DNA from: Picochlorum sp. SENEW3
Taxonomy: Eukaryota
DNA length: 64,000 bases
Assembly (NCBI GenBank): GCA_034226945.1
Contig: CP120460.1
Location: 372,001 to 436,000 of the forward strand
Direction: 5' to 3'
The stretch's first letter is position 1. Each line of letters begins with the position of its first letter. The notes under the pieces are model-generated. The model was not told where the DNA came from and did not search any database. It saw nothing but the letters and a program-made list of their open reading frames with translations. The translations under genes and the position numbers were made by a program. Positions 1-62,807 of the stretch are shown piece after piece.

Positions 1-1295
1 CTCCAGGCTGCCGTCGCTACGCCAGCGAACAAGGTCGCCAGTGCGGTATGCCTTGCTGTAAGAGTCAGACAGAGAAGCATGGACTCGCCCCTCCACAAGC
101 CCCAGGCATGGGTTGTCCACGAACGACTTGGCGGTCAGGTCGGGTCGGCCACAATATTCAAGCGCCAACCGAGGGCCGCTCAACAGCAGCTCGCCAGGGA
201 CGCCAAGGGGTAAGGGGCGGAGGGACGAGTCAACCACGTACGCATGCATGTTTGGGTCAGGGCGACCGATCACCACCATGTCAAAGCCACGGGGGAAACG
301 GTGGTGGGTCCCAGCGACCGTCGCCTCGGTGGGACCGTACGCGTTGTGCGGGCCCTTCATGTTAGGAAACACCTCTTGCATCTCCCGCACAAGATGGGCG
401 GGCACCGACTCCCCTCCCAAGCCCCAAGACTGCATGGCACCATACGGAGCAAAACCCAGCCTCTTCATGGAACTGACGTACTCGAGGGCCAAAGTGGGCA
501 CTGTGACCAAAAACGTGGTCACCTGATGCTCCACAACCGTCTTAGCAATGTAGTCAGGATCCAAGTGACCCTGGGGGCTGGCGACGATCATGCACGCCCC
601 AGCGACGAGAGGCGGAAACAACTGGTACAACGAAGCATCGAAGCAGATGGTGTTGGACAGAATGGACACGCTGGTGGTTCCCAAGGCATACTCGTCGACG
701 ATAAAATGAGTAAAGTCCCGCAGGCCCCGGTGGGGCACCGTCACGCCTTTGGGTCGACCTGTGGACCCAGAGGTGAAGATGATGTAGGCGGGGTCCTCCG
801 GACCGGCAGCAACAGGCCTGTCGACCGACAGCGTCCCCGAGCCCCCATCGTCCACACTCGACAAAACCCGGTTGACATCCAAGATGATCACAGCCCTCCC
901 ACTCGCTGCAGCCATCGCCGTGGCGCGATCCAGATGGGCCGGCTCCGTCAGCAGGAGGGACGAACCAGCATCCTCCACATACACTGACAGGCGGTCGTCA
1001 GGATACGAGGGGTCGCAGGGCAGGTAGCAGCCCCCAGCGGTCAGGACTGCCAAGATGGTGACAACAAGCTCCAAAGAACGGTCCAGCATCACGCCCACTA
1101 CCACGCCAGGGCCCACGCCGTGGACGCTCACCAGCCCCGCTGCCATGGTGCAAACCCAATGGTACACCTCCCCATACGTCAGCCGTTGATCTTGGAACAA
1201 CAGGCACTCCAGGTCGGGGTGAGACACTGCTATCGCTGCAAACGCTTCGTACACCAAACCAGCATCGGCATACTCAGCACGCTGCTCGCCCATGC
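1..1295. repeat. Direct repeat copy A (NRPS A2 domain), partner 3289-4583, period 3288 bp
   Basis: Matches 3289-4583 with about six substitutions seen by eye (e.g. 183, 630, 825, 1157, 1177, 1250). Confidence 0.95.
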
Positions 1296-4200
1296 ACTTC
1301 TCAGCCAACTGTATGGATTGGTCAAGACTCAACAGATTTGTCGATCGCACCTTGGCGTGCATATTGTCCACCATGCATGTCAGAGCGGTCTCGAAGATGC
1401 TGTAAAGACTCTGGATCGTTTGAGAGTCGTATATTTCAGCCATATACTCCATTTGAAGCACAGAACCAACAAGCACTGCTGTTACATCTGCTTTGGCTGT
1501 TGCTTTGAGCTCAACGTGCTTGTGCTTTTTTCCTGTCATCTGACCAAGGACAAGTTCTCCAATAGCACCTGGATCGCGGGTGGGGTCCAGGTACTGGAAA
1601 AGGCACTGAAACAATGGATTGGCACCAGGGACACGCGCAGCTGGGCTGGAGGCAATAATTTCCTGAAGAGGAAGTATTGAATGAGACAGAGCAGCTATAG
1701 TTGACTCACTTGTAGCTCGAATCATATCCTCAAAGGTAGATGAGTCAGAAATAGAGCATCGCACGGGCACAGTGTTGATGAAATAGCCAATTAATCCATG
1801 AGTTTCAGGCTGATCACGACCTGCCGTCGGCACACCTACCACGACCTCATCATCCCCACTTTGCAACAGCAAGGCCAACTGGAAAGCAGAAAGAAGAACA
1901 GCCTGCATATTGACACGCAGTCTGCGTGCGAGTGCCTCGACTTGCTCCAATAAGCCATCAGGAAGATGCAACACCAGTTGACGACACTCGTATGTGGGAT
2001 TGGAGGGTCGAGGCCGATATAATGGAAGCTGAATCACTGCAGGAGCTCCAGAGAGTGCTTCTTTCCACCACGCTCGAGCCTCCACTCCACGTGAACTTGC
2101 TACTTGCTCACGTTGCCATGCTGCAAAATCTCCATACTGGATAGCGAGAGGCTCGAGATCGGGTTTGGTCAAGCCCTTTTTGGCACATTCGTAGCAAACG
2201 GAAAGTTCTGCACAGAGAACACCATATGACCACGCATCGCTCACAGCATGGTGCATGGTGATAACTAAAACGGCATTACCAGAAGCCCTCTCCAATAGAA
2301 GGCCACGTAAGAGACAATCTGTCTCCAAGTTGAACTGATAGGATGCCTCCATGCAGACTGCTGCGTCAACCCAATGCTCCCCCTCTAATGCCGAACGTTT
2401 GCCCGTGATCGGCTCCTTCAGGACCTTCCAAGGAACACGGAAAGATGATGGTGGCACAGCAAGTCCGTTTGGCTCCCCATTTGAGCTCTGTTGGAATTTG
2501 GTGCGAAGCACTTCATGGCGACGCACAATCATATTCAGAGAGGATTCAAGAAGATTGGGCTCTGGGCACGAGTCAAAGTCAAACGCCAGCATAGTGTTGT
2601 AGGCAGATATGTTACCTGATTTCGCTATGCTCCACATTTGCTCCTGATTACAAGATAGCACCCTTTCATCTCCATTCCAAGGGCGAGCTTGTACCGTACT
2701 TAACATTCCTAGAGACTTGTTATCTAGCATAAGCGACGCGATACCTCTTATTGTGCGTCCTTGATGTACAACTGTGACAGGCACCATGCCCAAATCTGTA
2801 GCCTTGCCCAAATCCTTCACAACATGAAACGCCTTCAACGAAGTCCCACCAAGCGCAAAAAAGTCATCGAGAACGCTTATTGTGTCGATATTAAGACCAA
2901 GAACATTGCTAAAAGTAGAACGTAGAGCCTCCTCGACCACATTAGCAGGAATAACAAACTCCACTTGCCCATCTCCAACCCATTCAGGCTGCGGCAGTGC
3001 CCTGACGTCCACCTTGCCATTGGGCTGCAACGGAAACGCATCCAGAGCAACAATTGTGCTGGGAACCATGGCAGCCATCAACAGCGACCGGCAGTGGCTC
3101 AAGACCAATTGCACATCCAAATCTGCAGGGCACACGTACCCAACCAAGCGCTTCTCTCCAGACGGATCTGCCATCGCACACGCCACGGCTTGCGCCACGC
3201 CTGCAAAGGACTCTAAAGCGGACTCCACCTCGCCAAGCTCGATGCGCACGCCCGTGATCTTCACCTGGCGATCGATGCGCCCAAGGAACTCCAGGCTGCC
3301 GTCGCTACGCCAGCGAACAAGGTCGCCAGTGCGGTATGCCTTGCTGTAAGAGTCAGACAGAGAAGCATGGACTCGCCCCTCCACAAGCCCCAGGCATGGG
3401 TTGTCCACGAACGACTTGGCGGTCAGGTCGGGTCGGCCACAATATTCAAGCGCCAACCGAGGGCCGCTCAGCAGCAGCTCGCCAGGGACGCCAAGGGGTA
3501 AGGGGCGGAGGGACGAGTCAACCACGTACGCATGCATGTTTGGGTCAGGGCGACCGATCACCACCATGTCAAAGCCACGGGGGAAACGGTGGTGGGTCCC
3601 AGCGACCGTCGCCTCGGTGGGACCGTACGCGTTGTGCGGGCCCTTCATGTTAGGAAACACCTCTTGCATCTCCCGCACAAGATGGGCGGGCACCGACTCC
3701 CCTCCCAAGCCCCAAGACTGCATGGCACCATACGGAGCAAAACCCAGCCTCTTCATGGAACTGACGTACTCGAGGGCCAAAGTGGGCACTGTGACCAAAA
3801 ACGTGGTCACCTGATGCTCCACAACCGTCTTAGCAATGTAGTCAGGATCCAAGTGACCCTGGGGGCTGGCGACGATCATGCACGCCCCAGCGACGAGAGG
3901 CGGAAACAACTGGTACACCGAAGCATCGAAGCAGATGGTGTTGGACAGAATGGACACGCTGGTGGTTCCCAAGGCATACTCGTCGACGATAAAATGAGTA
4001 AAGTCCCGCAGGCCCCGGTGGGGCACCGTCACGCCTTTGGGTCGACCTGTGGACCCAGAGGTGAAGATGATGTAGGCGGGGTCCTCCGGACCGGCAGCAA
4101 CAGGCCTGTCGAACGACAGCGTCCCCGAGCCCCCATCGTCCACACTCGACAAAACCCGGTTGACATCCAAGATGATCACAGCCCTCCCACTCGCTGCAGC

Positions 4201-6137
4201 CATCGCCGTGGCGCGATCCAGATGGGCCGGCTCCGTCAGCAGGAGGGACGAACCAGCATCCTCCACATACACTGACAGGCGGTCGTCAGGATACGAGGGG
4301 TCGCAGGGCAGGTAGCAGCCCCCAGCGGTCAGGACTGCCAAGATGGTGACAACAAGCTCCAAAGAACGGTCCAGCATCACGCCCACTACCACGCCAGGGC
4401 CCACGCCGTGGACGCTCACCAGCCCCGCTGCCATGGTGCAAACCCGATGGTACACCTCCCCATATGTCAGCCGTTGATCTTGGAACAACAGGCACTCCAG
4501 GTCGGGGTGAGACACTGCTATCGCTGCAAACGCTTCGTGCACCAAACCAGCATCGGCATACTCAGCACGCTGCTCGCCCATGCTTCGGCCCGCAATTATG
4601 GGTTTTTGATTGGGTGTGATGATTGCCTCAATAGGAGAGTTTGGGCTCTTGAGGCCTTGGTGTAGGATGGCCATCATACTGTTAATCATCTGCTCCCCAA
4701 ACTCTGTACTAAAGATTTCTTCATTTAAAATAAGTCTCAAATGAATCTCGGTACCAAAGTCTGCAATTTGAAGGAACAAGTCCTCATTTGCTCTTCCTGT
4801 CCAAGGCTTGAGCTGACACGTTTCTGCTTGCAAGTTTGGTAAGGAAGGAGAGCATGCCCAATCTGCACACAGTTGCAACAGCAGCGTCATATCAAAAGCC
4901 ACATGCCAAGGCACATATTGGTAATTGCAAATTTTGAGACTGAGATCCATGCAAAAAAAATCGTACCTTTTTCCCAGATGGTTATAGAAGCCTTCGCAAG
5001 CAAGGCATGCGATTGGGCACCACCCAGGCAAGCCATGATATCTCCAAACGTGATGTCACCATGTGCTACTGCTTCTTTAATTTCTGCACCAATGTATTTC
5101 ACTGTATCACGGAAAGACCTCTTGTCATCCATAGTAAGACGTAATGGCAGTGCATTGACAAAATGCCCGATCATGTTTGACATGTGTGGAGGCTTGATCA
5201 TTCTGGGAAAGAGTAGGACAAGGTCTTCATCTCCACTATACATGGACAACGTGTACGAGTAAGCAGCTGTCAGTACGCGTATCAATGACTGGCGCTCTCG
5301 TGACATAAAGTTGCGGATGTCATCGAGCATGCAAACGTCATTCACTACGCACACAACAGGTTTGCCTCTGCAAGAGCTCTGGCGTGGGCGGCTTCTTTCC
5401 AAAGGCATGTTCAATGCCTGGGGAGCACCCGCTAACTTCTTTTTCCAAAATTCAGTCTGTTTTCTCACCAAGCTATCGGTCCTTCTCTCTCGTAGCCATG
5501 CAGCATATTCCCCAGGCTGGGCTTCCATTTTAGGGAGGTCATGGCTTGATGCCCCACTGTACAAGGCTGCTAGTTCACGGAGCCACACCCCTTGACTGCC
5601 TCCATCCATCACGCAGTGGTTACGGCACAGCATTACTACATGTTTCTGATCGGCAACATGGGCCACCGCCACTCGGATGAGAGGAGGAGATTCCAACTGA
5701 AATCCTCTCTGAGCAATGGTCTCCAATCTCTGCAGCACTGCTTCATGGTCGATCCCATACTCGGTCAAATCCAACACCTCCAGCGACGCTTTCACACTTC
5801 CAACCGGGTGTAGTTTTGCAGAAATGAAATCACCATCTCCATCAGGTACTTGCGATGAGCTGGAATGCTCCGAGGAAGAAACCTCCAGGTGAAACGACGT
5901 ACGCAGGGCGTCGTAGCGGTCGACCAGCAACTGGAAAGCCCGCTGCAATGCCTCATCGTCCATGCACCCTTGATACTGAATTGCTAATACTTCTGTGATG
6001 ATATTTCCCAGTTGTAATGGATCTGAATAAAAAGATTCCGCGAGAGGAATAACCAAGGAGGGCACTGGTAGGTGTCTAGTAGGAAGGCTACCATTGCACA
6101 GAACCTCTCCCTCGTTTCCATTTGCTGGCGCGTTCAT
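1..6137 (-). CDS. Multimodular non-ribosomal peptide synthetase, C1-A1-PCP1-C2-A2 (3' truncated by window edge); exons 6137-4967 and 4862-<1
   Basis: GT..AG intron 4863-4966 joins the 416-aa ORF to a long frame with no stop seen in the stretches translated. Motifs: C1 RNHCVMDG; A core LTYGEV, GGCYLPCDPSYP, AYIIFTSGSTGRPKG, FDAS, NAYGPTE, PNGKVD; PCP DDFFALGGTSL (~2836-2868); C2 MHHAVSDAWS and IGYFINTVPVR; second A domain starts ~1295. Confidence 0.95.
3289..4583. repeat. Direct repeat copy B (NRPS A1 domain), partner 1-1295
   Basis: Near-identical to 1-1295; identity stops abruptly at the C/A boundary. Confidence 0.95.
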
Positions 6138-6655
6138 ACTACTATACGGTTACGATGGGTGAGTACCAGGTATAATTTTATTTTGCAGTCTTACATGCTC
6201 GGCGGTGATGTGTAGTGAGAAATTTCACATGTAATTGGGCAATCCTCAAATTCGGATTCAGGGGGACGCGCTTTCTTGATGAATCATTTCTTTTTGAGAT
6301 ATATTACGCAGGCGAAAATCATGATTCTTGCAAGAATCAATTGATCAAGATCAAAACGATATCGTCTACTCATCGATCGCACATTTAAATGTATTTATTG
6401 ACGGAATCTTCCTTGAATAGATATATTACGTACCGTCGAAATCGACGACACGGATCGTCTACGTTCCACACATTTGCACCGTGTTGTTTTCAAATTACCA
6501 TTTTCTCTGAATTTTTCTATTACAATCCTATATATCTGTACGTCTTTGGATGCATGGATCATCGGCATCGGTCTCCTTGGCATACTGATGGCGATATCCT
6601 CTTTGTGACGTGGGTTTTTGATATCGATTGATTGATCTCTCATATGTGCAGGCGA

Positions 6656-7198
6656 ATGATGATGCTGACGGTGAGCAAGACGACACCTGTGGCTGTGTGT
6701 GGATCGAAGAGGACCACAAGGGTGGTGCCTGTGTCTGGACAGAGGAGATCCATGGTTGCTCGCTGCGAGGCGTCAACGAATGATGCAGTCGTAGATCGCC
6801 GAGCTGCATTGATGATGGGTGGTTTGTCTCTGTGGGCTGTGGGAAGCCCGGCGCAGGCGTTCCTTGGAATTGGTGAGGATCGCAGTGCAGAGTACACAGA
6901 GGAAACACAGCAGGTGATTGATGGTATCAGATCTGCTTTGGAGAAGGAGCCAAATACTGACGAGCGTGAAAAGGCAATGGGTGATCTCAAAGGTATCAGT
7001 GTGAAATGGGTGAGCAAGTACAGACGCGATCCAAAGTTTGCTGGGCGTCCATCATATAGTCAAATGTATTCTGCTGTGAATGCTCTGGACGGTCAGTTGG
7101 TATCGTTCGGACTCAAAGCAAATTTCCCAAAGAAGAGACTGGATCGTATGATGAAGAGTGTGGATGATGCAGAGAGGCAGCTCAAGAGAGGAAGATGA
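6656..7198 (+). CDS. PSB27: Photosystem II assembly/repair protein Psb27 (thylakoid lumen)
   Basis: Transit peptide plus twin-arginine signal (DRRAAL...AQA); WVSKYRR...GRPSYSQMYSAVNALDG...PKKRLDR...LKRGR. Confidence 0.92.
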   Translation: MMMLTVSKTTPVAVCGSKRTTRVVPVSGQRRSMVARCEASTNDAVVDRRAALMMGGLSLWAVGSPAQAFLGIGEDRSAEYTEETQQVIDGIRSALEKEPNTDEREKAMGDLKGISVKWVSKYRRDPKFAGRPSYSQMYSAVNALDGQLVSFGLKANFPKKRLDRMMKSVDDAERQLKRGR

Positions 7199-23741: not shown

Positions 23742-25643
23742 ATGGATGGAGAGACGGAAAAGAAGCGGAGATTGGCAGTTCTCGCGAGTCATCTGACGCG
23801 GAACAATGTCCTTGCCAGTGGACATGTCGCAACGCAACCCCATGGGCAGGGAATGGTTGCTTATGATTCACTGAATCAATGGTTGGTGAGGGATAACCGA
23901 GAGTTACGAGAGGCTATTTTCGACTTTTTGAACGATCCCTTGTACATGCCAAATTATCAGCAGAGTTTGGAAGGGTTTCGGGAGCTGACGATGCAGCGTG
24001 TGGTCAAATTTGTTCGACAAGGTTTTTTTTCAGTTACGGATTATGCCAAAGACCCGTTAAAGTTTCAGGCGGCGTTGGAGTCGCTGTCGTTCTGTGACTA
24101 TTCCATGGCGATTAAGAGTGGGGTTCATTTCACATTGTGTGGAGGGACGATTGTGAAACTGGGAACAGAGAAGCATCATAAAGAGTTTCTGCCAAAGATG
24201 GATACATTGGAGTTGCCTGGGTGTTTTGGAATGACGGAGCTTGGGCATGGAAGTAATGTGATGGGTATTGAAACCACGGCCGAATATGACAGAGCGAGTG
24301 GAATGTTTGTGATTCATACGCCTCATAATGAAGCTTCCAAGTTTTGGATTGGAGGTGCTGGGTCGACGGCAAAGATTTGTGCCGTGTTTGCTCAATTGAC
24401 AATTGACAAGACATGGCAGGGGCCTCATGTGTTTATTGTTCGGTTGAGGGATGACCAGGGTACTATTGTCCCTGGAGTGAGGATAAAAGATAATGGAGCG
24501 AAACAGGGATTGAATGGGGTGGATAATGGGCAAATATGGTTTGATCATGTGCGGGTGCCGAGGGATGCGCTGCTGGATAGGTATGCATCTGTTGATGCCC
24601 AGGGTAGGTATTCGTCTCCTATATCAGATCCGAACCAACGGTTTGGGACAATGGTGTCGGGGCTTACGACTGGGAGAATGTTGATTGCTCAGGCTGCGGT
24701 GGATGCGTGCAAGAGTGGTGTGACAATTGCATTGAGATATTCGTGTGCACGTCCTCAGTTTGCAAATACCCCAATTATACAATATGTGACGCAGCAGCGA
24801 CGGTTGATTCCAGCATTAGCAACGACGTATGCTATGCATCTTTCTCTGTTGAAATGCAAGTATATTGGCCTGTCTGGGGATTCGGCAAAGAATGCCAAGG
24901 TGGTGCATGTGTTGTCCTCTGGGTTGAAAGCAGCTGCGACATGGCATCGTGTGCAGATTCTCCAAGAATGCAGAGAATGCTGCGGAGGCATGGGATTTCT
25001 TGCTGCAAACAAGATTGGTCCAATGTTGAATGATATGAATGTTGATGTGACGTTTGAGGGAGATAATACAGTCATGATGCAACAGGTGGCAAAGTCACTG
25101 ATTGATGTAGGAATGAAAAAGAAGGCAGAGCCTCCTGTTCTTCCATCATCTGTTCGGCATGAAAATTTAGGACTGGAGTGTCTTAAAGCATTGCTTTCCT
25201 GGAGGTGCGATATGCTCACACATGGTCTTGTTCACGAGTTGGCATCATCAATGAGGAATGGATATGAATGCAATTTGGATAGGGTGGTTGCTCTGGGTTG
25301 GGCGTCGGTCGACTCGTCAACATATACCATGTTTATGGAAGAGTTGAATTCAGTGCCTGTGGCGTGGAAGGATGCATTGACCAAATTATGCATACTATAT
25401 GGACTGAGCCGTGTTGAAGCTGGTCTGACAACCTATTTGGAACATGGAGTACTCCCAGGAAGGTCTGTCGCTGCCATCAGGAATCAAATTAATGATTTAT
25501 GTCTGTATTTTGCATCAACATCAACGTCATCGTCTTCGAATGGGCCTCTTGCTCTGGATCTCTGTGATGCTTTTGGCATTCCAGATCATTTATTGCAGGC
25601 TCCAATTGCGGTAGACAGTTGGCACAGAATCGGTGCTACATAA
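23742..25643 (+). CDS. ACX: Peroxisomal acyl-CoA oxidase
   Basis: PTS2 RLAVLASHL; GCFGMTELGHGSNV, KFWIGG, GLNGVDNG, CRECCGGMG, TFEGDNTV. Confidence 0.95.
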   Translation: MDGETEKKRRLAVLASHLTRNNVLASGHVATQPHGQGMVAYDSLNQWLVRDNRELREAIFDFLNDPLYMPNYQQSLEGFRELTMQRVVKFVRQGFFSVTDYAKDPLKFQAALESLSFCDYSMAIKSGVHFTLCGGTIVKLGTEKHHKEFLPKMDTLELPGCFGMTELGHGSNVMGIETTAEYDRASGMFVIHTPHNEASKFWIGGAGSTAKICAVFAQLTIDKTWQGPHVFIVRLRDDQGTIVPGVRIKDNGAKQGLNGVDNGQIWFDHVRVPRDALLDRYASVDAQGRYSSPISDPNQRFGTMVSGLTTGRMLIAQAAVDACKSGVTIALRYSCARPQFANTPIIQYVTQQRRLIPALATTYAMHLSLLKCKYIGLSGDSAKNAKVVHVLSSGLKAAATWHRVQILQECRECCGGMGFLAANKIGPMLNDMNVDVTFEGDNTVMMQQVAKSLIDVGMKKKAEPPVLPSSVRHENLGLECLKALLSWRCDMLTHGLVHELASSMRNGYECNLDRVVALGWASVDSSTYTMFMEELNSVPVAWKDALTKLCILYGLSRVEAGLTTYLEHGVLPGRSVAAIRNQINDLCLYFASTSTSSSSNGPLALDLCDAFGIPDHLLQAPIAVDSWHRIGAT

Positions 25644-25910
25644 TCTTGTAGATCTATCTGTAATTCATTAAAAGCGTCTATTTGTGGTGATGGCATACAA
25701 GTAGTATACTTTTTTGGGGGGGTACCTACTAGGTATGCTGCATGCATGAAGCTGGTATTATTCATGCATGGAATGGCATTCATCATCATCTCATACTATA
25801 TCCATCCATGTAGCATGCAAAAGTCTGTCCTCACATGTTGTATAAACACATAATAATAAAGTAAATAAATAAATAAATAAAACAATTTGTTGAAAAGAAT
25901 AGTACATAGG

Positions 25911-26744
25911 ATGGACTGTGTTCCAAATCCAAAGAGACGAAGGATTGATACAGAAGGCCACCATGGGTGGATGCCCATTCACTATGCTTGCCATCGTGGA
26001 GATGTTACGCTTCTCCGCCATATTCTTCTCAGCAGCGATCAAAAGAATGGAACATTATTCTCTATAACAACGAGGTCACAGTCAACTCCGTTGCATATCG
26101 CAGCCATATCTGGGCATGTGGAATGCGTGGATGTGATCCTTGCCTTTCTGGCAGAGCACATTCCCGATGCGGTGGCCCGACGGCGAGTTCTGACACAGCA
26201 TAGCTCACCAATATCCTCTCATATGCAGTGGACTGTACCTAAAGAAGAGGATTTCATTGAGTCGTTCGGCCCGAATGACATGCTCATGTCGTCAAAAAGG
26301 ACGGGGTTCCAGCCTCTAGACTTTGCTGTCTTGTCCAATGCTCCAGAGATTGTCTCCAGACTGCTTACTGCCATCCACGAGACATGTCCACCTCAGGAAA
26401 AGCACTCTCCTCATGCGATCAAAGGAATGATTTCGAGCGACCTATTACCGGCAGCCATTGTGAGAGGGAATGCCACGATTCTCGAGGCTTTGATAGACCA
26501 TGGGGCCTCCATCGAAGCTGTGTGCGTGGAAGAAGAAGACGCGGGGATGAGACCGATTCATTGGGCTGTGGCCTGTGGGGATGCTATTATCCTGTCTCTC
26601 CTCCTCCAAAGAGGTGCTGATCCATCGGCAAAGACCCAGCATACCAACGAATCCATCCAGGATGTCGCAGAGCGATGCTGTTGCCATGCTACCGAGGATC
26701 TCGTCAGGCTCGTGCTTGAGACGCAGCACGCCCCAGAACTCTGA
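25911..26744 (+). CDS. Ankyrin-repeat protein
   Basis: Repeats GWMPIHYAC, TPLHIAA, QPLDFAV, GMRPIHWAV...GADPSAK. Confidence 0.85.
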   Translation: MDCVPNPKRRRIDTEGHHGWMPIHYACHRGDVTLLRHILLSSDQKNGTLFSITTRSQSTPLHIAAISGHVECVDVILAFLAEHIPDAVARRRVLTQHSSPISSHMQWTVPKEEDFIESFGPNDMLMSSKRTGFQPLDFAVLSNAPEIVSRLLTAIHETCPPQEKHSPHAIKGMISSDLLPAAIVRGNATILEALIDHGASIEAVCVEEEDAGMRPIHWAVACGDAIILSLLLQRGADPSAKTQHTNESIQDVAERCCCHATEDLVRLVLETQHAPEL

Positions 26745-26836
26745 TAATTCAATTCCTATTACTATTATTAGTACTGTAATACTACTACTGCAGTAATTAT
26801 ATTATCTAATAGAATATATGTATAATATGTATCGAC

Positions 26837-27412
26837 ATGGATGGGTATGATAATCCGTCGGTAGCTCGAGAGCAGGAGGCAAAAGTTGGCGTGGGAGTCT
26901 TGGTCTGCAAAACACTTGATTCAGAGGCCATCCACGTCCTTGTAAGCAAAAGGTCCGAGTGATGCATCCCATGTTATTGTATAGTACTCGTAAGAAACCA
27001 TTCCAATCCAAGAACATACACACACACATGCTTTGCTGGAACATGCAGAAAGGGAAAGGTGGGCAGGAATGCGTGGGCCCTGCCTGGAGGCAAGCTAGAA
27101 TTTGGTGAATCCTTTGAGCGCACTGCTGCCAGAGAGCTTGAGGAGGAAACTGGCATCACCGTCCCTGAATCAGACTTTAGATTCGAATACGCAGTCAACA
27201 CCGTCTTTGATGCGTCCACCCACTATGTCACAGTGTTCATGTCCTGCACTGTTTGTCCAGAGACAAGGGCAGAGACTCGAGAACCAGACAAGCATTCTGA
27301 TTGGGAGTTTGTGGATTGGAATATGCTTCGACAGCAGACCAATGAGTCCTATCTACCGCTCTTTGAACCCCTGAAAACGCTCTGTGACAATCAATCCTTC
27401 ACACTTGAATAG
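26837..27412 (+). CDS. Nudix hydrolase, NUDT15/NUDX1-like; exons 26837-26952 and 27049-27412
   Basis: KVGVGVLV; Nudix box GGKLEFGESFERTAARELEEETG; HYVTVFM; EPDK. Confidence 0.88.
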
Positions 27413-27679
27413 AACGGATGAGTGTAGTAATCGCAGACGCATCATCACTGATGATTCATCAGACATTAGAGCATGCTCTTTGCGCAAAGGCGGTTGGTTG
27501 GATTTCAAATTTTCACATCCACGGATAGGGTCTTGCATGACTGATGCGTACTTCCAATGTATTAAATATTCAAATTATATGTATTTAATAGAGTAGAGTA
27601 GCACTATAGGCGCATAGAGTCTCTCTCTGGTTGGGAATTGTCAGGGATTGTCAGAATCCGATTTGTTCAGAGACGAGCC

Positions 27680-29908
27680 ATGTCAATCTCCAAAGTATGG
27701 CTGCAAAAACAGTTTCAGTCAAGTGGTATTCAGACCGAATCCGCTGCTCTAAAGCTGTTGGCTGAAAGGATGCAGGAAATGCCCAGCGAGTCGGAAGATT
27801 TGCTTGGGTCGTTGTTGGACGATATTGAGACTCGTGCGTTGGTGAATCGCTTGGATTGCCTGTAACTCAAATATATAGAACCTAATAATCATGATACTGA
27901 TGGGATACTATGTAGGGACTGATGATCGCAAGTTGACGCTGAGTTTTTTGAAAGAGTTTTTGGACAAGTCTCGTGGGACATCGTCTGGAAGCGTCGAACT
28001 TATCGACGCATTTCACATTCCATTGGTTCAGTATGACCCGATTAGGCACATGTTCCATCTCAATACCAAGGGTAGGCGGATTGTGGGGGATATCAAGGTA
28101 TGTATATGTGGGGGGGTGCTTGTCCAGGAGATGGATTATTGCAAGTCTGTAATGCTGATGATGGATGTTATTCTTACCATGCAGAATAAATTTCAATTGT
28201 ATGAGGATCGGTTTCTCATGATTCAGCAACGGTTGAAGCGAAATGCCATGTTTAGGCCGACCAAATGGGGTCGGTTGAGCAAGCAAGGGGATGTTGCAGC
28301 GCTGACAGAGCTCAAGTCTCTGCTTGGTCACGAACGAGAGCGTAAATTTGTCGTTGGATTCTTGACGAAACATGATGAAGGGCAGTATTATATTGAGGAT
28401 TTGTCAGCGCGGTTGCCGATAGATTTGACTGTCTGCGATACAGCAGATGGGCTGTTTACAGAGAATTGTGTTGTTGTTGCAGAGGGTGAACTCATGCCTG
28501 GAGGAGACTTTCGAGCAATTGCGCTTGGATTGCCTCCAGCAGAATCTAGAGAAGAGAGTATAGAAGCACTGCAGGGACATGATCTCTTTGGCGCGACCCG
28601 TCCAGGGTCGCACGAACCAGAGAAGAAGAGTGAAGAGGAAGATGATGGCGATCGCATTGTGTTCTTGTCCGATGTGCACCTCGATGATCCCAAGGTATTG
28701 GAGAATCTCGATACAATATTCGAAGGGTATTCACTTCCAGAGGCGACGATGCCAACGGCGTTTGTCCTCATGGGTAATTTTCAAAAGACAAATGCCAATG
28801 GCCCTCGATCGACACTCTCCAAGATTAAAGACAATTTTACAATGCTCGGGCGATTGATAGCGAAGCATCCAGCTATACTGTCAAATTCTGATATTATTCT
28901 CGTCCCAGGACCGCAGGATATTGGTATTGGGAATATGCTGCCCCAACGAGGCATTCCCACGTCAGTCGCACAAGGTTTGTTGCAGCATGTCCCCAAAGCC
29001 ACGCTTGCAAGCAACCCATTACGGATGCGATACAGGGGATCCGATCTCATATTCTTCAGATCAAACTTGCAGCAATTGTTACGAGGGCTTTCTATTTTAC
29101 CGCCACCGATGCCATCGTTCAGCGAGGATGGAGAGGACTATATGAGGCATGCTGCCTTCTTCTTTGATCAAACATGCAGTACTGTGATACAAGAGTCTCA
29201 TCTCTGCCCTGTACCCTTAGACTATCAGCCTATCATATGGGAATGGGATCATTCCTTGTACATTTATCCAAACCCTCACGGATTGATTTTAGCAGACTCG
29301 GAGCCAGCAGCTGAATGCGTGTTTGACACATGCCATTGTTTGAATCCGGTACGATGCGTTTGATTTGTTACATGCAATCACGACTCGACTATAGTATTAT
29401 GCATATGTTTACGGTATTATAGGGCCCATTAGCAAGTGGTAGTTTCGGTGCATGGAACCCATCAGAGGGAGTGATGGAACTCTGCCATGTGAATGAACCA
29501 GAGGAAGACGATGAGGAGGATGAAGAAGCTGTACTGGAAGACACAATCCCTGAGGCGAAGGATACTCGTCCTGTTAAAAAACATGCTCACATAGATGGGT
29601 ATTTTAAAGCGCAAGAAAATTCAGATGTGAATGAAAATGTCAACGAGTCACAAGGTACTTCTGACATGGAGGAAGATTTCGTGGTGCGAGAAGATTCCCA
29701 CCACAAAGATGATATGATGGCTGCCAAAGGAAATACTGCGAGTCATCAGACAGACGAGATTGATGTTGACACGAGTCAAGTAGAAAATGACAACCCCATC
29801 TTGCATGACATGGGCGAAAGGCCACCCGTCAAGACAAATGAATCTGGAGTCCCACCAGATTCAGACGGCACTCACCAGGCTGCTGATGACGTGATGGATG
29901 AAATGTAA
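27680..29908 (+). CDS. POLE2: DNA polymerase epsilon subunit B, multi-exon (introns ~27834-27915, 28098-28184, 29350-29422), acidic C-terminal tail
   Basis: GLFTENCVVVAEG, LSDVHLD, VLMGNF, VPGPQD, ASNP.R, QESHLCP, W.WDHSL..YPNP, NPG across the last intron. Confidence 0.92.
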
Positions 29909-50848: not shown

Positions 50849-52702
50849 TCAATATGAATGGAAATCTTCAGCATGAAATGCAAAGTGTTTTCCACTAATT
50901 GCCGGGAATGTGTTGCAAGCATGGCGTAGACTTGCAACCATAGAGGTTGGTCCGCAACAAAAGACACCCACAGGACTCTCGGCAACAGATGCACCTGGAT
51001 CGTAATCTCTAAGAATCTGACCAAAATCTGGTCGTCCAAAATGTGACATAGTATTTGAGCTCTTTAGCCTGATTCCAGAGAGTATATCTAGTCCACAGAC
51101 ATCAGCATGAACAGACCCAACTCTTTTTGCAAGCTTTACAAGCTCAGGCTTTATACCAGTGAGCCATATGTTAACTCGAATGCTGCAATTCTCGGAGGAT
51201 TGTCTCAGATCTTCCATAGATTCGAAAAGGGTCTTGAACCAGGTCCTGGCTGCTTCAATGTCTCTCACCACCCAATGGAGAGTCAATGACCTACATTGAT
51301 GACTATGCTCCATCATCTCTGCAATGACCGACACAAATGGTGTCACCCCTATTCCACCAGCCACCATAAGAATATGGCTGTAGTTTTGGTATTCACATGT
51401 GCTTGTCATATACGGGCCATCCACGTAACATTTTGTCGAAACAAGATGGCCTTGGCAGGCCTGATGACGTAACTCCTTTGTCCAGTCTCCAACTGCCTTG
51501 ATATACAAGGTCAAATAATTTTTGGCAAAGGAAGTAATCGAGAAAGGATGCCATTGGAATTTTGAAATTGATGGTACTAATACATGAGCATACGTTCCTG
51601 GCTGCCAACTTCTTTTTCCAGGTGCCTGGACCGTCAGGGAAAGGGCATCATTTGGCAAAGTTTGACACAGAATGATGCTGCTAACACTTTTGCTTCTCCG
51701 ATACCATCTAATCCCAACAGATAATAGAAGTAGTAAAATTGGAATACTGATGAAAATCCAAGTTATTGAGCCAAAACCCTGAGTGGCGTCCCATGACGGC
51801 AGAGTTGGTAGAGGGTGAAAAAACAGAAGTCCAGAAAATGTCGCAGCCATGAACCAATGGCTCAACTTGAAAGCCTCAAACGACCTGAAATACTTTGCTA
51901 TCCGTGTTTCGTTTTTAATGAGTCTTTTATGCAACCCTGAAGCGATGAAGGATCCCAGCAATAGTATGCCAAGCATGGCATATCCAGTAATTGACACATA
52001 TGATGTACAAAGACCCTTCATACTTCTCGACCTTCCTCCTAGGTTACCAATGTACCTGTACTTTGAATCTCCATTTACCCATCCTTCAGAACTTGAAATA
52101 CTCCAATACAGTGGAAACCATGCTATGGAATGAACTATTGAACCTAGCAGAACAATGATCCCAAACACACGATGAAGAGTTGACATTGTTACTGGAAGGT
52201 GGACATGATGAGATAACTTCTTATAGAAGAGATATCTCAATAATCCATTTGCTGAGAGTAAACAGAACACAAGCGATGCTACAGCTAATGACGCCCCTGC
52301 AACAGCAACTGAAAGAAGGGCAAGTCGTCCCTTTTCCTTCCACACTCCTATCTGGGATCTTGGAAAACTTAAAACGAAGGCTGCAGCGACAGCAATACAG
52401 AACAAGGCGCAGAGCATGAACACAATTAAGCTATTTCTGATTATGTATAGCTTCATTCGTTTCGAAATTGATGCGCCATCAATGGATTTCTGCCTGGACT
52501 GATTTTCTATTTGCAAATCTGCCTCCATGTCAAGTGTGCTCCATATCAAGTCTGAGTCAGCGACCTGGGAAGCATTCGGCGTCTTCAAATTATCAAGATC
52601 ATAAAGAATCTTCTGTTTGATACCTTCCCTAACAACATTATTGAACACGCAGCATGCATCTAGCACTTCCTCAATGGATTTTTCAAGGTAATCGTCTTCC
52701 AT
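50849..52702 (-). CDS. Ferric reductase / NADPH oxidase superfamily flavocytochrome without EF-hands
   Basis: Four haem His (HRVFG...IVH, SHWF...FFH), QWHPFSITS, YVDGPY, VAGGIGVTPF, HFGRPDF, VFCCGP, HAEDF. Confidence 0.92.
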   Translation of the reverse strand: MEDDYLEKSIEEVLDACCVFNNVVREGIKQKILYDLDNLKTPNASQVADSDLIWSTLDMEADLQIENQSRQKSIDGASISKRMKLYIIRNSLIVFMLCALFCIAVAAAFVLSFPRSQIGVWKEKGRLALLSVAVAGASLAVASLVFCLLSANGLLRYLFYKKLSHHVHLPVTMSTLHRVFGIIVLLGSIVHSIAWFPLYWSISSSEGWVNGDSKYRYIGNLGGRSRSMKGLCTSYVSITGYAMLGILLLGSFIASGLHKRLIKNETRIAKYFRSFEAFKLSHWFMAATFSGLLFFHPLPTLPSWDATQGFGSITWIFISIPILLLLLSVGIRWYRRSKSVSSIILCQTLPNDALSLTVQAPGKRSWQPGTYAHVLVPSISKFQWHPFSITSFAKNYLTLYIKAVGDWTKELRHQACQGHLVSTKCYVDGPYMTSTCEYQNYSHILMVAGGIGVTPFVSVIAEMMEHSHQCRSLTLHWVVRDIEAARTWFKTLFESMEDLRQSSENCSIRVNIWLTGIKPELVKLAKRVGSVHADVCGLDILSGIRLKSSNTMSHFGRPDFGQILRDYDPGASVAESPVGVFCCGPTSMVASLRHACNTFPAISGKHFAFHAEDFHSY

Positions 52703-53090
52703 GAGTAATCGGGAATGGTACTTTCTACGCCGTCCAACTTGACAATTAAATAATGGTTAGAATTTTATTGAGCTGTTCAATGGATCATTTGAAAATTTGA
52801 TAATTTGATAATAATATCGTATCTGTTTTGCTTGCAAATACTTAATACGTGGATCGCCTCGACGCCATCCCCATGAGGCGCACGCCGAGCGTGTGTCGCA
52901 AGTCTTTTTTGAGGACGTCGCTCTCGTTACCAGAGGCTAAAAAGATGGAACAAATAATTTTGATTAAAAATGGTACTGTCAAGGGACGTACCAGGATCGT
53001 GTTTTTGAACTAGTTACATTGAAAATATAGATTGGCAAATGCATGTTGCTGCATGAAGACCCCATACGATTCATATCTACTTGTTGCCAT

Positions 53091-55213
53091 CTAAATAAAG
53101 ACAGCTCCCACTACCGTGGCTAAAATAGTAAGCGAAAGATTCACCAAAAAGCCTCTGGAGGAGGAGGTTTCATCCTCTTGATAAATTCCTCCTGCTTCAC
53201 CAGCCTCACCGGCTTCTCCTGCTTCTGACTCTCCTTCATATTTACTCAGATCAAGCTTGGTAGTCCTCTCTGGATAATTGATGAACTTGAGTTCATAAAA
53301 GTCAGAGCAATCGTCAAACACATTGAGAGCATTCCCCATAGACACTACAGCATCTCTGACTGCATACCCTTTGTCAATGATACATTTCCTTGTGTCCATG
53401 GTGGCATTTGCATAGGATTTGTAGTCAGCGTTCAATAAGTTTGAAATACTTTCTTCGGTGACATTTGCAGCAGAGACTGCCGTAATATCATCATTGGTAT
53501 TAATACCAAGGCAGTCTCTAGCATCCTGTATTGCCTGTGCAACCTCCTCACATTCTTTTGGTGCATCGTCGCAAAATGGATAAATTTGGCTCCATATTCC
53601 TTTCCAATTATTATAAAAGATCAAAAGGGACAAGTCGGAGAATGTCTCCTCCTCACTTGAAATCTTCTTCGATGGCACCTCAGATGCAAGACCTGCTATT
53701 CCGTCCCATGCATTGGCAGAATTAAAATCTTCGGAGGGGTTCTCTAGGCGACCCTGGAGGTCCTTCAAGTTATCAATAATATCCTCGGCAAGAGATATAG
53801 TGTCATTCGAAATCATATTCTCTCCGAAAAGCAGCCTCTCTACCCTATGGAAACCCCTAAAGGAATCATCCAATTCTCCTCTGAAGTATATATACTCGCG
53901 GGCGTCCAAAGCCTCATCAATATCGATGAAGCTCGGAGCTAGCACTTCAACCTGTTCATAAATTGGTCTGGTGGACAAATAGGCAGATTTCGCCGCATCA
54001 ACGTCTCCACTCTTGAGAACCTCCACAAAGTTTTCTGACTCCTGAACAGCGTATGGCATCAAGGCACTGAAGTATGCAAGGCCATTTTGAATCTGAGGAC
54101 TCTCGTTTGAGAATGAAGCCGTTTCTACGTATGGAGTGCATTCGTCGGAGCTCTCTGCCTCGCCTTCCCCAGCCTCTCCAGCCTCTGAAGGATCTACCAA
54201 TTCAATACCCAAAGAATCTGCAGCATCCTCAACAGCAAGGCCCACATCATAGAATGACTTTTGAATATTTCTTCTTGTTGTGACATTGACCGCAGAATAT
54301 GGCTCATATCCAACCACATTTCCGTCGCCATCCCTTAGGACATATGGTGCAAGGGTCGCATTGGCTGCGTCAATGGATGTGATCAAGCCCTGAGCACTAT
54401 CAGGATTTGATTCCTGGAGAGCCTCAATCCATGGCTCCATGATGTTCTTTATACCTGCCAAATTGTGGTAAAAGATGAGAATCGATAAATCTGAATACGT
54501 CTCCTCTTCACTGGAGAGTTTCTTCTTGGAGACCTCGTAGGCAAGCTCTGCCACACCATGCATAATGGCCTCTGGAGTATAGTCGGATGGATCATCCAAT
54601 TTTTCAATCAGTATCTCATAGTCTTTGATCAATTGTTCAGTCCATGAAACAGCTCCCGGTAAATCGTCCTCTCTGAACAACATAAGCTCGATCTTGTGAG
54701 AGCCTTTGAAGACGGCTCCTGGGATCTCAGTAAGCTGGGCACTAAAAGCTTCTCCATACGGGTAGGCATATGGTCGGGCGTCGATATCAGAATCGGTATC
54801 GCCAAAAACCTCATATAAATGTTCAATCTCTTCATAGTTGGGACGAAGTGCGGTATATGCCGCGATAGAAGCATTCTTGTCTCCAGATTCAAGGGCTTTG
54901 ACGAGATCCTGAGCAAGAGATATCGACTCCACGGCATTGCTCCTAGCGAAGGACACCACCGACATGACCTCAGGAGAGGCAGCTACATTAAAACGATAAT
55001 GATATTAGTGCATGATTGACTTGATTGGAGCATCTTGGTCTCGGTAAGGAAATGTGGGCAGAAATGTGATCAAGCACATTTCCAAAACTGGATGTTCCGG
55101 CAGTTGGTTAAGAAACCCATCCAGATGGATGAGGCCATCACATACAAGAACCTACCGATACTGCTTTGAATTACACATGCTAAAGCGAAGAAAACTACCG
55201 CAGAGCGCATCAT
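53091..55213 (-). CDS. Secreted, probably GPI-anchored protein with two EfeO/imelysin (M75) domains; exons 55213-55156 and 54982-53091
   Basis: Signal peptide MMRSAVVFFALACVIQSSIA; each domain has RPxYExxE, D..IDAR/LDAR, GxHxxE (HKIE, HRVE), KKxSSEEETxSDLS; hydrophobic C-terminus after SSS. Confidence 0.88.
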
Positions 55214-62342: not shown

Positions 62343-62807
62343 TAGTGTTAGGTACAAGAAAATCATGTGGTGACTCCGCCAATCAAAGCAAGAAAAGTAG
62401 AAATCTCCCTCACTGTGTGGAGCAACGCAAGGGCATGTCATCATATATTACAAGTAAAAACATCAGTCGTGTGTGTTTGTACTGGTCAATGCTTTAAATC
62501 GATTTCTGCATGAACAAGCGCTGATATTTAATTGCTCTTTGCAATATCAAGGCATGCGTTCTCTTCTTGAAAGTTGATGGCATTTCCAAGCCCCCTTCAT
62601 CTTTCAAACCTCATGCACATGCATGCATCTGAGTTTACCCCGTTCAAAGGTGTGATCCATCCAACGGTGGTCTGCCGCCTACGGGATGCGATGGAAAAAA
62701 ATACTTTCTTACTACCTGCGCTACGACGCTGGAACTATGTAATTGACAGTAGAATACATCTATAGGTAAATATATGTAAATATGTCACTGAATAGTCAAT
62801 TTGATTC

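What the first reader, a model, noticed from the sequence alone, without database searches (positions are those of the whole stretch)
1..6137. Multimodular NRPS in a minimal green-algal nuclear genome
Seen: an intron-containing gene encoding C-A-PCP-C-A that continues past the window edge, next to the native nuclear gene PSB27. The A-domain cores and the phosphopantetheine Ser (GGTSL) are intact. Known: multimodular NRPSs are mainly bacterial and fungal, and green-algal products are largely uncharacterised. Inference: the alga makes an unknown non-ribosomal peptide. The spliceosomal intron argues against contamination.
Basis: partly seen in the sequence, partly recalled or inferred. Interest (0 to 1): 0.85.

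Follow-up and report, generated by a model that had tools for sequence, protein, structure and literature searches.

The report
Picochlorum two-module peptide synthetase gene
A small green alga (Picochlorum) carries a real, apparently intact nuclear gene for a two-module non-ribosomal peptide synthetase; such genes are already listed in algal genome-mining surveys, but its two amino-acid-selecting domains are kept almost identical to each other.

Summary
The minus strand of 1-6137 encodes C-A-T-C-A and runs off the left edge. A 104-nt GT..AG intron (4863-4966) joins two open frames into 2011 codons without a stop. PSB27 lies 494 bp upstream on the other strand.

The host is a Picochlorum (Trebouxiophyceae), judged from names in 90%-identity protein clusters. 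The surrounding genes are ordinary nuclear genes. Independent public assemblies cover the gene through to PSB27. The A domain groups with green-algal A domains, not with the 68 other rows, which were not checked one by one but include named bacterial NRPSs. Contamination is therefore very unlikely.

The headline is not new. A 2024 antiSMASH survey (PMC10794256, Table S3) lists A-T-C-A-T NRPSs of 7.7-7.9 kb in many Picochlorum strains. A 2025 Trebouxiophyceae survey also implies NRPS in Picochlorum.

Three points go beyond those tables:
- An N-terminal C domain sits on a separate exon.
- The two A domains are 99.5% identical in DNA, and a close relative shows the same pattern. That points to concerted evolution.
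- GC3 is 0.72 inside the repeat and 0.47 elsewhere in the gene.

Splicing and expression were not shown. The release domain, substrate and product remain unknown.

The parts
1..6137 (-). NRPS gene, 5' part: ATG at 6137, C-A-T-C-A, continues past the left edge of the window
   Evidence: ORFs; Pfam; 2011 spliced codons without a stop
4967..6137 (-). Exon 1: about 30 N-terminal residues plus most of condensation domain C1. The active-site motif reads NHCVMDG at 5601-5621.
   Evidence: Pfam Condensation E 3.8e-45, residues 51-375 = 5013-5987; motif position
4863..4966 (-). Predicted spliceosomal intron, 104 nt, GTACGA...TGCAG, phase 1
   Evidence: Sequence; frame restored; best of 62 GT..AG candidates by C-domain HMM. 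No RNA evidence.
1..4862 (-). Exon 2: end of C1, then A1, T1, C2 and most of A2
2979..4583 (-). A-domain repeat, copy 1 (the whole of A1; Pfam AMP-binding plus AMP-binding_C = 3013-4518). GC3 is 0.716.
   Evidence: 3289-4583 matches 1-1295 with 6 mismatches. A contig of run X2 covers 2979-4583 and then diverges. GC3 figures.
2734..2931 (-). T1 (PCP) domain; GGTSL with the phosphopantetheine-attachment Ser at 2836-2850
   Evidence: Pfam PP-binding 30.5 bits, cutoff 20.8; motif position
1315..2664 (-). C2 condensation domain; motif MHHAVSDAW at 2230-2256
   Evidence: Pfam E 2.7e-72, profile 5-452 of 456; motif; best solved relatives are the Txo2/Txo1 C domains
1..1295 (-). A-domain repeat, copy 2 (A2, cut by the window edge), 99.5% identical in DNA to 3289-4583
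6138..6631 (.). 494-bp AT-rich spacer between the divergently oriented NRPS and PSB27 genes (presumed shared promoter region)
   Evidence: Sequence. Contigs of runs X9 and X2 run from NRPS exon 1 into this spacer, and further contigs overlap on into PSB27.
6632..7198 (+). PSB27 (context gene)
   Evidence: Pfam PSII_Pbs27 E 4.1e-22

Best explanation
This is a native nuclear gene of a Picochlorum green alga for a modular NRPS. In the window it reads C1-A1-T1-C2-A2, and it continues beyond the edge. The published Picochlorum architectures (A-T-C-A-T, about 7.7 kb) suggest a second T domain follows and no recognised release domain.

Inferred mechanism: both A domains keep Asp235 and Lys517 by recalled landmarks, so each should adenylate an alpha-amino acid. 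Because the two domains are nearly identical, it should be the same amino acid. Each loads it on its own carrier domain, and C2 joins the two residues. The N-terminal C1 resembles ordinary elongation C domains more than a lipo-initiation starter C. It would therefore add a donor delivered in trans, or act again on the enzyme's own intermediates.

Shown: the whole 1605-nt A-domain block is homogenised between the two modules. This is most likely repeated gene conversion (concerted evolution). The sharp GC3 island is read as a footprint of GC-biased conversion; that step is inferred.
For: Gene and domains. TIGR01733 (amino acid adenylation domain) scores 644 bits against a cutoff of 317.

Algal nuclear context:
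- Neighbours are PSB27, YccV-like, DUF1995, Nup107, UPF1, TGT, ACOX, MCM6, cyclin and glucan-water dikinase.
- Two window proteins fall in 90% clusters with named Picochlorum proteins.
- GC3 of C1, T1 and C2 (0.41-0.50) lies within the range of the 24 neighbouring ORFs (0.39-0.53).

Independent assemblies: contigs of run X2 cover 1266-3008, 2979-4583 and 4554-6438. Contigs of X9 cover 5801-6454, 6425-6751 and 6724-7092.

Phylogeny (85 A domains, quick IQ-TREE). Support values are SH-aLRT.
- Window A pairs with P0003 (99).
- Both sit in a 13-row clade with the two Chlamydomonas sp. UWO 241 A domains and P0123/P0418 (100).
- Ostreobium joins next (95).
- This group is separate from the 68 rows on the other side of the tree. 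I did not check those rows one by one; they come from hit lists that hold many named bacterial NRPSs.

Concerted evolution:
- Window 1-1295 matches 3289-4583 with 6 mismatches in 1295 nt.
- The copy-2 contig diverges exactly at 2979, and its depth is 42 against 18 and 31 for the flanks, so about two copies.
- In a relative, A1 and A2 are identical at 204 of 204 residues. Window against relative is 171-174 of 204.
- That divergence equals the one for C2, 370 of 434.

GC3 is 0.72 (695 of 967 codons) in the repeat and 0.47 (491 of 1044) in the rest of the gene, Fisher p 6e-30. The boundaries coincide with the repeat.

A and C2 share the same nearest relative, P0003 (60% and 44% identity). The A domain is therefore not a foreign graft.

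Constraint: of 28 strain differences listed inside the CDS, 16 are at third codon positions and 15 are synonymous (40 of 67 differences were shown).

C1 type: its best solved relatives are the Txo2, bacitracin and TycC C domains (E 5e-30 to 2e-25). The surfactin synthetase entries score only E 1e-9; that these are the SrfA-A starter C is recalled, since the table names them only 'Surfactin synthetase'.
Against: - No spliced read or contig was seen. All four runs laid are held as contigs. The one RNA library (X17) gave only six short contigs at 95-99% identity, and it may contain DNA.
- The window's own NRPS protein was not found in the protein collection at 30-5000 aa, although another protein of the window is there. 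The gene model in public annotation is therefore unknown.
- In the relatives at 80-86% identity, the ORFs break after DEYDLG in both A copies. This is either an intron or a frameshift.
- In C2, 5 of the 6 listed strain differences change the residue.
- C1 has N instead of the first His of HHxxxDG, and C2 has A instead of the final G.
- No T2, release domain or PPTase could be examined.
- The specificity code (DAYTGGAVAK) was read from recalled landmarks only and matches no code I can name.
Confidence: 0.75

Rival explanations
1. Bacterial contamination or a chimeric assembly: the NRPS belongs to an associated bacterium and was joined to the algal contig by error.
For: NRPSs are commonest in bacteria. 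Most database hits are bacterial, at 31-37% identity. The region has higher GC than the rest of the window.
Against: - Contigs from independent runs tile the gene from 1266 through to PSB27; the ends of the A repeat are joined by overlaps of about 30 nt only, and 1-1265 has no X2 cover.
- C1, T1 and C2 have host-like GC3.
- A GT..AG intron is needed to keep the frame.
- The A domain sits in a green-algal clade.
- The same architecture is reported in many Picochlorum genomes.
Confidence: 0.02
2. The gene is a decaying or silent relic that makes no product.
For: - No expression or splicing evidence.
- Relatives show broken ORFs inside both A domains.
- Both C-domain active-site motifs deviate from the consensus.
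- 5 of 6 listed differences in C2 are nonsynonymous.
- No release domain appears in the published Picochlorum architectures.
Against: - 2011 codons without a stop.
- All A and T core motifs are intact.
- Strain differences in the A domain are mostly synonymous third-position changes.
- The architecture is conserved across at least eight named Picochlorum strains in the rows I saw.
- Six contigs in a metatranscriptome match the gene.
Confidence: 0.15
3. The GC-rich, duplicated A domain is a recent import: an A-domain swap from a GC-richer donor or from the second Picochlorum NRPS locus, copied into both modules. It would not be the product of long-running GC-biased gene conversion.
For: The composition jump is sharp and coincides with the domain boundaries. 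A-domain swapping is a known route of NRPS evolution (established knowledge; the papers were seen as a listing only).
Against: - A and C2 share the same nearest relative, P0003, and the same algal clade.
- Window-to-relative divergence of A (84-85%) equals that of C2 (85%).
- The relative also has identical A1 and A2, which differ from the window's. That fits continuing homogenisation in each lineage.
Confidence: 0.15
4. The NRPS entered Picochlorum, or a recent ancestor, by horizontal transfer from bacteria.
For: The gene family is mainly bacterial. Outside a handful of algal and environmental sequences, the best hits are Longimicrobiaceae, Myxococcota and Acidobacteriota at 33-37% identity.
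Against: - The nearest sequences at 39-60% identity include the two named green algae. None of the sampled bacterial A domains falls inside that clade.
- Composition outside the A repeat is host-like, and the gene holds an intron.
- An ancient transfer into green algae cannot be excluded. The tree is unrooted and was sampled by similarity to the query.
Confidence: 0.08

Closest known systems
Dimodular Picochlorum NRPS entries in the antiSMASH survey of 212 algal genomes (PMC10794256, Table S3)
   Same: Same genus and the same internal domain order, A-T(PCP)-C(LCL)-A. The listed length of 7.7-7.9 kb fits 6.1 kb in the window plus about 1.5 kb beyond the edge. Entries exist for P. costavermella, P. 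oculata, P. oklahomensis, NBRC102739, SENEW3, BH2019, celeri and soloecismus (I saw the first 30 of 134 places).
   Different: The published strings start with the A domain. The window has an extra N-terminal C domain on a separate exon. I cannot show which listed entry, if any, is this locus. The paper does not discuss these entries individually in the passages I read.
P0003, an unnamed environmental protein (JGI/IMG and NCBI, 21-kb contig)
   Same: Colinear over A(part)-T-C-A, 51% identity over 1270 residues. It is the nearest neighbour of both A (60%) and C2 (44%).
   Different: Its two A domains have diverged from each other (by eye, from the alignment). It continues into a second T domain, a membrane region with hexapeptide repeats, and a thioester reductase. 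The membrane region matches the Pls/PosA terminal domain TIGR02353 at 268 bits, below the cutoff of 423. No such tail is listed for Picochlorum.
Bacterial C-A-T-C-A-T synthetases such as DhbF (bacillibactin)
   Same: Two elongation-type modules that begin with a C domain, which in DhbF takes its donor from a separate carrier protein (recalled knowledge). One JGI homologue carries the name 'nonribosomal peptide synthetase DhbF'.
   Different: Identity to bacterial NRPSs is only 30-37%. No TE domain is known here, and no equivalog model of NCBIfam reaches its cutoff. No aryl- or acyl-carrier partner was identified.
Concerted evolution (gene conversion) of domains in bacterial assembly-line synthases
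   Same: Paralogous domains within one synthase are more alike than orthologues between species, with sharp tract boundaries at domain edges. The phenomenon is described for bacterial PKS and NRPS clusters; PMC4256081, PMC9205934 and PMC8256042 were seen as search listing and abstract starts only.
   Different: Here it occurs in a eukaryotic nuclear gene and comes with a GC3 island (0.72 against 0.47). That pattern is expected from GC-biased conversion in eukaryotes.

Membership tests
Modular (type I) non-ribosomal peptide synthetase | Adenylation domain with core motifs A3, A5, A7, A8 and A10 | tested here: met
   Pfam AMP-binding E 2e-151 plus AMP-binding_C. TIGR01733 scores 644 bits against a cutoff of 317. 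Motifs were located in both copies where present in the window. Motif names are recalled.
Modular (type I) non-ribosomal peptide synthetase | Carrier (T/PCP) domain with the GGxS phosphopantetheine-attachment serine | tested here: met
   Pfam PP-binding 30.5 bits, cutoff 20.8. GGTSL at 2836-2850. T2 lies outside the window.
Modular (type I) non-ribosomal peptide synthetase | Condensation domain with the catalytic His of HHxxxDG | tested here: met
   C2 reads HHAVSDA and C1 reads NHCVMDG. The second His is present in both; each has one consensus position changed. Pfam E 2.7e-72 and 3.8e-45. Activity was not tested.
Modular (type I) non-ribosomal peptide synthetase | Colinear C-A-T module order on one polypeptide | tested here: met
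   Order C-A-T-C-A on one spliced frame
Modular (type I) non-ribosomal peptide synthetase | Chain-release function (TE, R or terminal C) | not testable with these tools
   The 3' end lies outside the window and no genome is held. Three scans for related loci found nothing. Published Picochlorum strings end in PCP, with no TE or R in the A-T-C-A-T entries.
Modular (type I) non-ribosomal peptide synthetase | Activation by a 4'-phosphopantetheinyl transferase, and a detectable product | not testable with these tools
   No genome to search. None of the 33 window translations scanned (ORFs of 150 aa or more) matches a PPTase family.
Native eukaryotic nuclear gene (not a contaminant) | Physical linkage to host genes in independent data | tested here: met
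   Contigs of runs X2 and X9 tile from the NRPS into the spacer and PSB27
Native eukaryotic nuclear gene (not a contaminant) | Spliceosomal intron removed in mRNA | tested here: inconclusive
   GT..AG, 104 nt, best of 62 candidates. No joint was seen in the four runs laid, and none gave RNA cover over the site.
Concerted evolution by gene conversion | Paralogues within a genome more alike than orthologues between species, with flanking domains diverging normally | tested here: met
   Window A1 against A2: 201 of 204 residues. Relative A1 against A2: 204 of 204. Between species: 171-174 of 204. C2 between species: 370 of 434. Protein level only for the relative; one relative had both copies and a second had A1 only.
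Concerted evolution by gene conversion | GC enrichment confined to the converted tract | tested here: met
   GC3 0.72 against 0.47, p 6e-30, with boundaries at 4583 and about 2979. Whether conversion is the cause is inferred.

The most novel reading that the evidence does not exclude
The two A domains have been kept identical by gene conversion in more than one Picochlorum lineage. The N-terminal C domain is of the elongation type, and no release domain is listed for the genus. Together these do not exclude an enzyme that works iteratively: C1 would take the T2-bound intermediate back onto a freshly loaded T1, building a homo-oligomer or a cyclic dipeptide of one bulky amino acid. That would be a product class not known from green algae. 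On this reading, selection for identical specificity in both modules is what maintains the conversion tract.
Probability: 0.12. Interest if true: 0.7.

Novelty: already known. Interest (0 to 1): 0.3.

Why it matters
No non-ribosomal peptide has been tied to a gene in a green alga in anything I read. Picochlorum is fast-growing, has a small genome and is used as a biotechnology strain (the last points are recalled). It is therefore a practical organism in which to link an algal NRPS to its product by knockout and LC-MS.

The corrected gene model, with its extra N-terminal C domain, changes the predicted chemistry: a third building block or iterative use. The identical A domains with a GC3 island give a clean eukaryotic example of domain-level concerted evolution in an assembly-line enzyme.

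None of this is a surprise at the level of what kind of thing this is. It is a standard NRPS that has already been counted in surveys.

Tried and rejected
- **Whole genome.** None is held for this window, so there was no leftward extension, no PPTase search and no look for the second NRPS locus.
- **Full-length protein.** Three word-index searches covered lengths 922-2935, 2936-5000 and 30-921. One exhaustive search of representatives was also run. None returned the window's own protein. The best hits were 85-86% fragments (P0422, P0448) and the 51% P0003. The top 150 were all giant synthetases at 29-37% identity, because multi-module proteins sum their scores.
- **Related loci.** Scans of genome contigs with P0003 and of metagenome contigs with P0001 and then P0003 found nothing.
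- **Earlier findings of this scan.** Nothing by place, sequence or words.
- **RNA evidence.** No joint at 4863-4966 in runs X9, X16, X17 and X2. X9 and X16 are probably DNA. A 231-nt contig of X9 covers 4827-5057 unspliced, as DNA would. Parts without cover in X17 say nothing.
- **C1 against C2.** The blastp alignment stops at residue 369, before the junction, so it did not test the intron.
- **First intron ranking.** Mean blastp score of the first 540 residues was confounded: longer introns pull more A domain into the query. It was replaced by the HMM test with a fixed end anchor.
- **Substrate prediction.** I could not obtain an alignment to GrsA-PheA (1amu ranked 19th, and only the best alignments are printed). 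The code DAYTGGAVAK rests on recalled landmarks and matched no code I can name.
- **Break in the relatives after DEYDLG.** Translating the window in the other two frames gave only a vague likeness, which does not decide between frameshift and intron.
- **Alternative flank left of 6387.** The 30-nt sequence seen in runs X9 and X2 does not occur in the window.
Full report
**What is in the sequence**

The minus strand of 1-6137 holds two long open frames. One is 4887-6137 (416 aa, starting at an ATG). The other is 1-5031 (1677 aa) and runs off the left edge of the window.

Pfam finds a Condensation domain in the first frame (E 3.8e-45). In the second it finds, in order, AMP-binding plus AMP-binding_C, PP-binding, Condensation (E 2.7e-72) and a second AMP-binding stretch.

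GGTSL lies at 2836-2850. FTSGSTGRPKG, NAYGPTE and YRTGD occur in both A domains. GRIDRQVKITGVRIELGEVE and PNGKVD occur in A1; A2 is cut by the window edge before them. The C-domain active sites read NHCVMDG (C1) and HHAVSDA (C2). Each keeps the second, catalytic His and has one consensus position changed.

**The intron**

On the minus strand, 4966 begins GTACGA and 4863 ends TGCAG. Removing these 104 nt joins the two frames in phase 1 and gives 2011 codons without a stop.

I enumerated all 62 GT..AG pairs in the neighbourhood that keep the frame open. I scored each resulting C1 against an HMM built from 120 homologous C domains. In blastp, 185 of 240 homologues give an alignment that runs across the junction.

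This is good in-silico support but not proof. An earlier ranking by blastp score was confounded and I discarded it.

**Whose gene it is**

The rest of the window is dense with ordinary eukaryotic nuclear genes, several of them photosynthetic. They include PSB27 (6632-7198, + strand), a YccV-like protein, DUF1995, Nup107 in two exons, UPF1 in two exons, TGT, acyl-CoA oxidase, MCM6, a cyclin and glucan-water dikinase.

Of ten window ORFs looked up by exact sequence, two are in the protein collection. Their 90% clusters carry names from Picochlorum sp. BPE23, Picochlorum sp. SENEW3 and Picochlorum renovo. The host is therefore a Picochlorum (Trebouxiophyceae).

**Contamination can be set aside**

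- GC3 of C1, T1 and C2 (0.41-0.50) lies within the range of 24 neighbouring ORFs (0.39-0.53).
- Contigs of an independent metagenome run (X2) cover 1266-3008, 2979-4583 and 4554-6438.
- Contigs of another run (X9) cover 5801-6454, 6425-6751 and 6724-7092.
- Together these tile from the NRPS across the 494-bp spacer into PSB27.

**Relatives and origin**

No protein above 86% identity was found in any length class from 30 to 5000 aa. The window's own product is therefore not in that collection.

The nearest sequences are:
- fragments at 80-86% identity from one 10.3-kb ENA contig and from Logan assemblies (P0422, P0448, P0494, P0447, P0481);
- P0003, an unnamed 2762-aa protein that is colinear over A-T-C-A at 51% identity;
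- P0123/P0418 at 41%;
- Chlamydomonas sp. UWO 241 at 39%;
- Ostreobium quekettii at 34%.

Named bacterial NRPSs lie at 31-37%.

I built a tree of 85 A domains: the window's A1, every A domain of the five special proteins, one A domain from each of up to about 70 other hits, and one further Ostreobium copy. It was a quick IQ-TREE search with SH-aLRT support and midpoint rooting for drawing only. The window pairs with P0003 (99). Both sit in a 13-row clade that holds both Chlamydomonas A domains and P0123/P0418 (100), and Ostreobium joins next (95). The 68 remaining rows lie on the other side; I did not check them one by one, but they come from hit lists that hold many named bacterial NRPSs.

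The sample was chosen by similarity to the query and the tree is unrooted. It argues against a recent bacterial transfer into Picochlorum. It does not argue against an ancient one into green algae.

**The two A domains**

Window 1-1295 equals 3289-4583 with 6 mismatches in 1295 nt, which is 99.5%. Identity then drops to background.

In run X2, one contig covers 2979-4583 and then continues into sequence unlike the window. Another contig runs straight through 2979. The repeat is therefore 1605 nt: the whole A domain from the C-A linker to just past the A10 motif. The depth of the repeat contig (42) against its flanks (18 and 31) suggests about two copies.

The 30 loose letters after copy 2 translate to LTVPVPGEE. 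The same peptide follows A2 in the relative's protein P0448. This ties the relative's fragments to the same gene structure.

In that relative, the first 204 residues of A1 (P0494) and A2 (P0422) are identical at 204 of 204. In the window they match at 201 of 204. Between the two organisms they match at only 171-174 of 204. That is the same divergence as C2 (370 of 434) and the C1 tail (76 of 94).

Paralogues that are identical within each lineage but 15% diverged between lineages are the signature of concerted evolution by gene conversion. Caveats: the comparison is at the protein level only, it rests on one relative with both copies, and I assume the fragments lie on one contig because they share a contig length.

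**The GC3 island**

GC3 is 0.72 in the repeat (695 of 967 codons) and 0.47 in the rest of the gene (491 of 1044). Fisher p is 6e-30. In a sliding window, the rise and fall coincide with 4583 and about 2979, and again from about 1295 to the edge.

A and C2 have the same nearest relative and the same between-species divergence. I therefore read the island as a footprint of GC-biased gene conversion rather than a foreign A domain. This step is inference. The DNA of the relatives, which I could not fetch, would test it.

**Signs of constraint**

One search lists 40 of 67 base differences between the window and the laid contigs. Of these, 28 fall in the coding sequence. Sixteen are at third codon positions and 15 are synonymous. 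In C2 alone, however, 5 of 6 change the residue.

**How it probably works**

By recalled landmarks of the GrsA numbering, both A domains keep Asp235 and Lys517, so the substrate should be an alpha-amino acid. The ten-residue code reads DAYTGGAVAK. The small residues lining the pocket suggest a bulky side chain. I could not check this against a reference alignment, and the code matches none I can name.

With near-identical A domains, both modules should load the same residue, and C2 should join them.

C1's best solved relatives are elongation-type C domains: Txo2, bacitracin synthase 3 and TycC, at E 5e-30 to 2e-25. The surfactin synthetase entries, which I recall to be the SrfA-A starter C, reach only 1e-9. 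C1 therefore more likely accepts a carrier-bound donor than an acyl-CoA. Where that donor comes from is open: a second protein or the enzyme's own T2.

**What is already in print**

Searches for Picochlorum with NRPS, non-ribosomal peptide, peptide synthetase and antiSMASH found 9 to 13 papers each.

- **PMC12366059** (passages read). This ran antiSMASH on 31 Trebouxiophyceae. [quoted passage not shown] That implies its presence in Picochlorum.
- **PMC10794256** (passages, and the first 30 of 134 'Picochlorum' places in supplementary file 4).
  - It lists NRPS clusters with the string AMP-binding, PCP or PP-binding, Cond LCL, AMP-binding, PCP.
  - The strains in the rows I saw are P. costavermella, P. 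oculata, P. oklahomensis, NBRC102739, SENEW3 (two entries, 7922 and 7692 bp), BH2019, celeri and soloecismus.
  - None of these strings starts with a C domain.
- **PMC7826186** (passages). It mentions Picochlorum only as one of nine genomes, and a peptide synthetase only in cyanobacteria.

I found no paper that discusses the Picochlorum gene itself, its N-terminal C domain, or homogenised A domains in an alga. A search for adenylation domain, gene conversion, concerted evolution and NRPS (listing only) shows that concerted evolution is described for bacterial assembly lines.

**Verdict**

The modest additions are a corrected 5' gene model with an N-terminal C domain, and domain-level concerted evolution with a GC3 island.

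Still open: expression, splicing, the tail of the gene, the substrate and the product.

Noticed in passing
window 6387 (spacer between the NRPS and PSB27): In runs X9 and X2, a second contig matches the window to the right of 6387 but carries an unrelated, GC-rich flank of 198-231 nt to the left. Other contigs of the same runs run straight through. The flank is not in the window. It could be a second haplotype, strain or locus with a different neighbour upstream of PSB27, possibly one without the NRPS.
   Followed up: partly
window 6428-6683: Run X2 shows paired alternative contigs (111-112 nt, 0 against 3 differences) over 6428-6538 and 6572-6683. This looks like two alleles or strains in the PSB27 promoter and 5' region.
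   Followed up: no
proteins P0422, P0494 and P0481 (relatives; no locus held): In relatives at 80-86% identity, the called ORFs end shortly after DEYDLG in both A-domain copies. The window reads straight on at that point. The cause is either an intron that the window lacks or a frameshift. Translating the window in the other frames did not decide it.
   Followed up: partly
protein P0003 (residues about 1499-2729): After A2-T2, the closest homologue carries a membrane-spanning region with hexapeptide repeats, followed by a thioester reductase. The membrane region matches the Pls/PosA-type NRPS terminal domain (TIGR02353) at 268 bits, below its cutoff of 423. This is an unusual tail for a C-A-T-type NRPS.
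   Followed up: partly
proteins P0031 (Ostreobium) and P0418: Other members of the green-algal A-domain clade also hold near-identical A-domain pairs inside one protein, with very short tree branches. Homogenised A domains may be common in algal NRPSs.
   Followed up: no
window 23742-29363: The DNA polymerase epsilon subunit B ORF (27891-29363) shares a 90% cluster with a 1607-aa public protein named acyl-CoA oxidase 3. The public gene model probably fuses ACOX (23742-25643), an ankyrin protein (25887-26744) and this gene.
   Followed up: no
window 50849-54965: A ferric-reductase-type gene (50849-52702, - strand) sits next to an imelysin-like (Peptidase_M75) gene (53091-54965, - strand). This is a likely iron-uptake pair, about 45 kb from the NRPS.
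   Followed up: no
window 61047-63998: Two glycosyltransferase family 90 genes lie in tandem; the second runs off the right edge.
   Followed up: no
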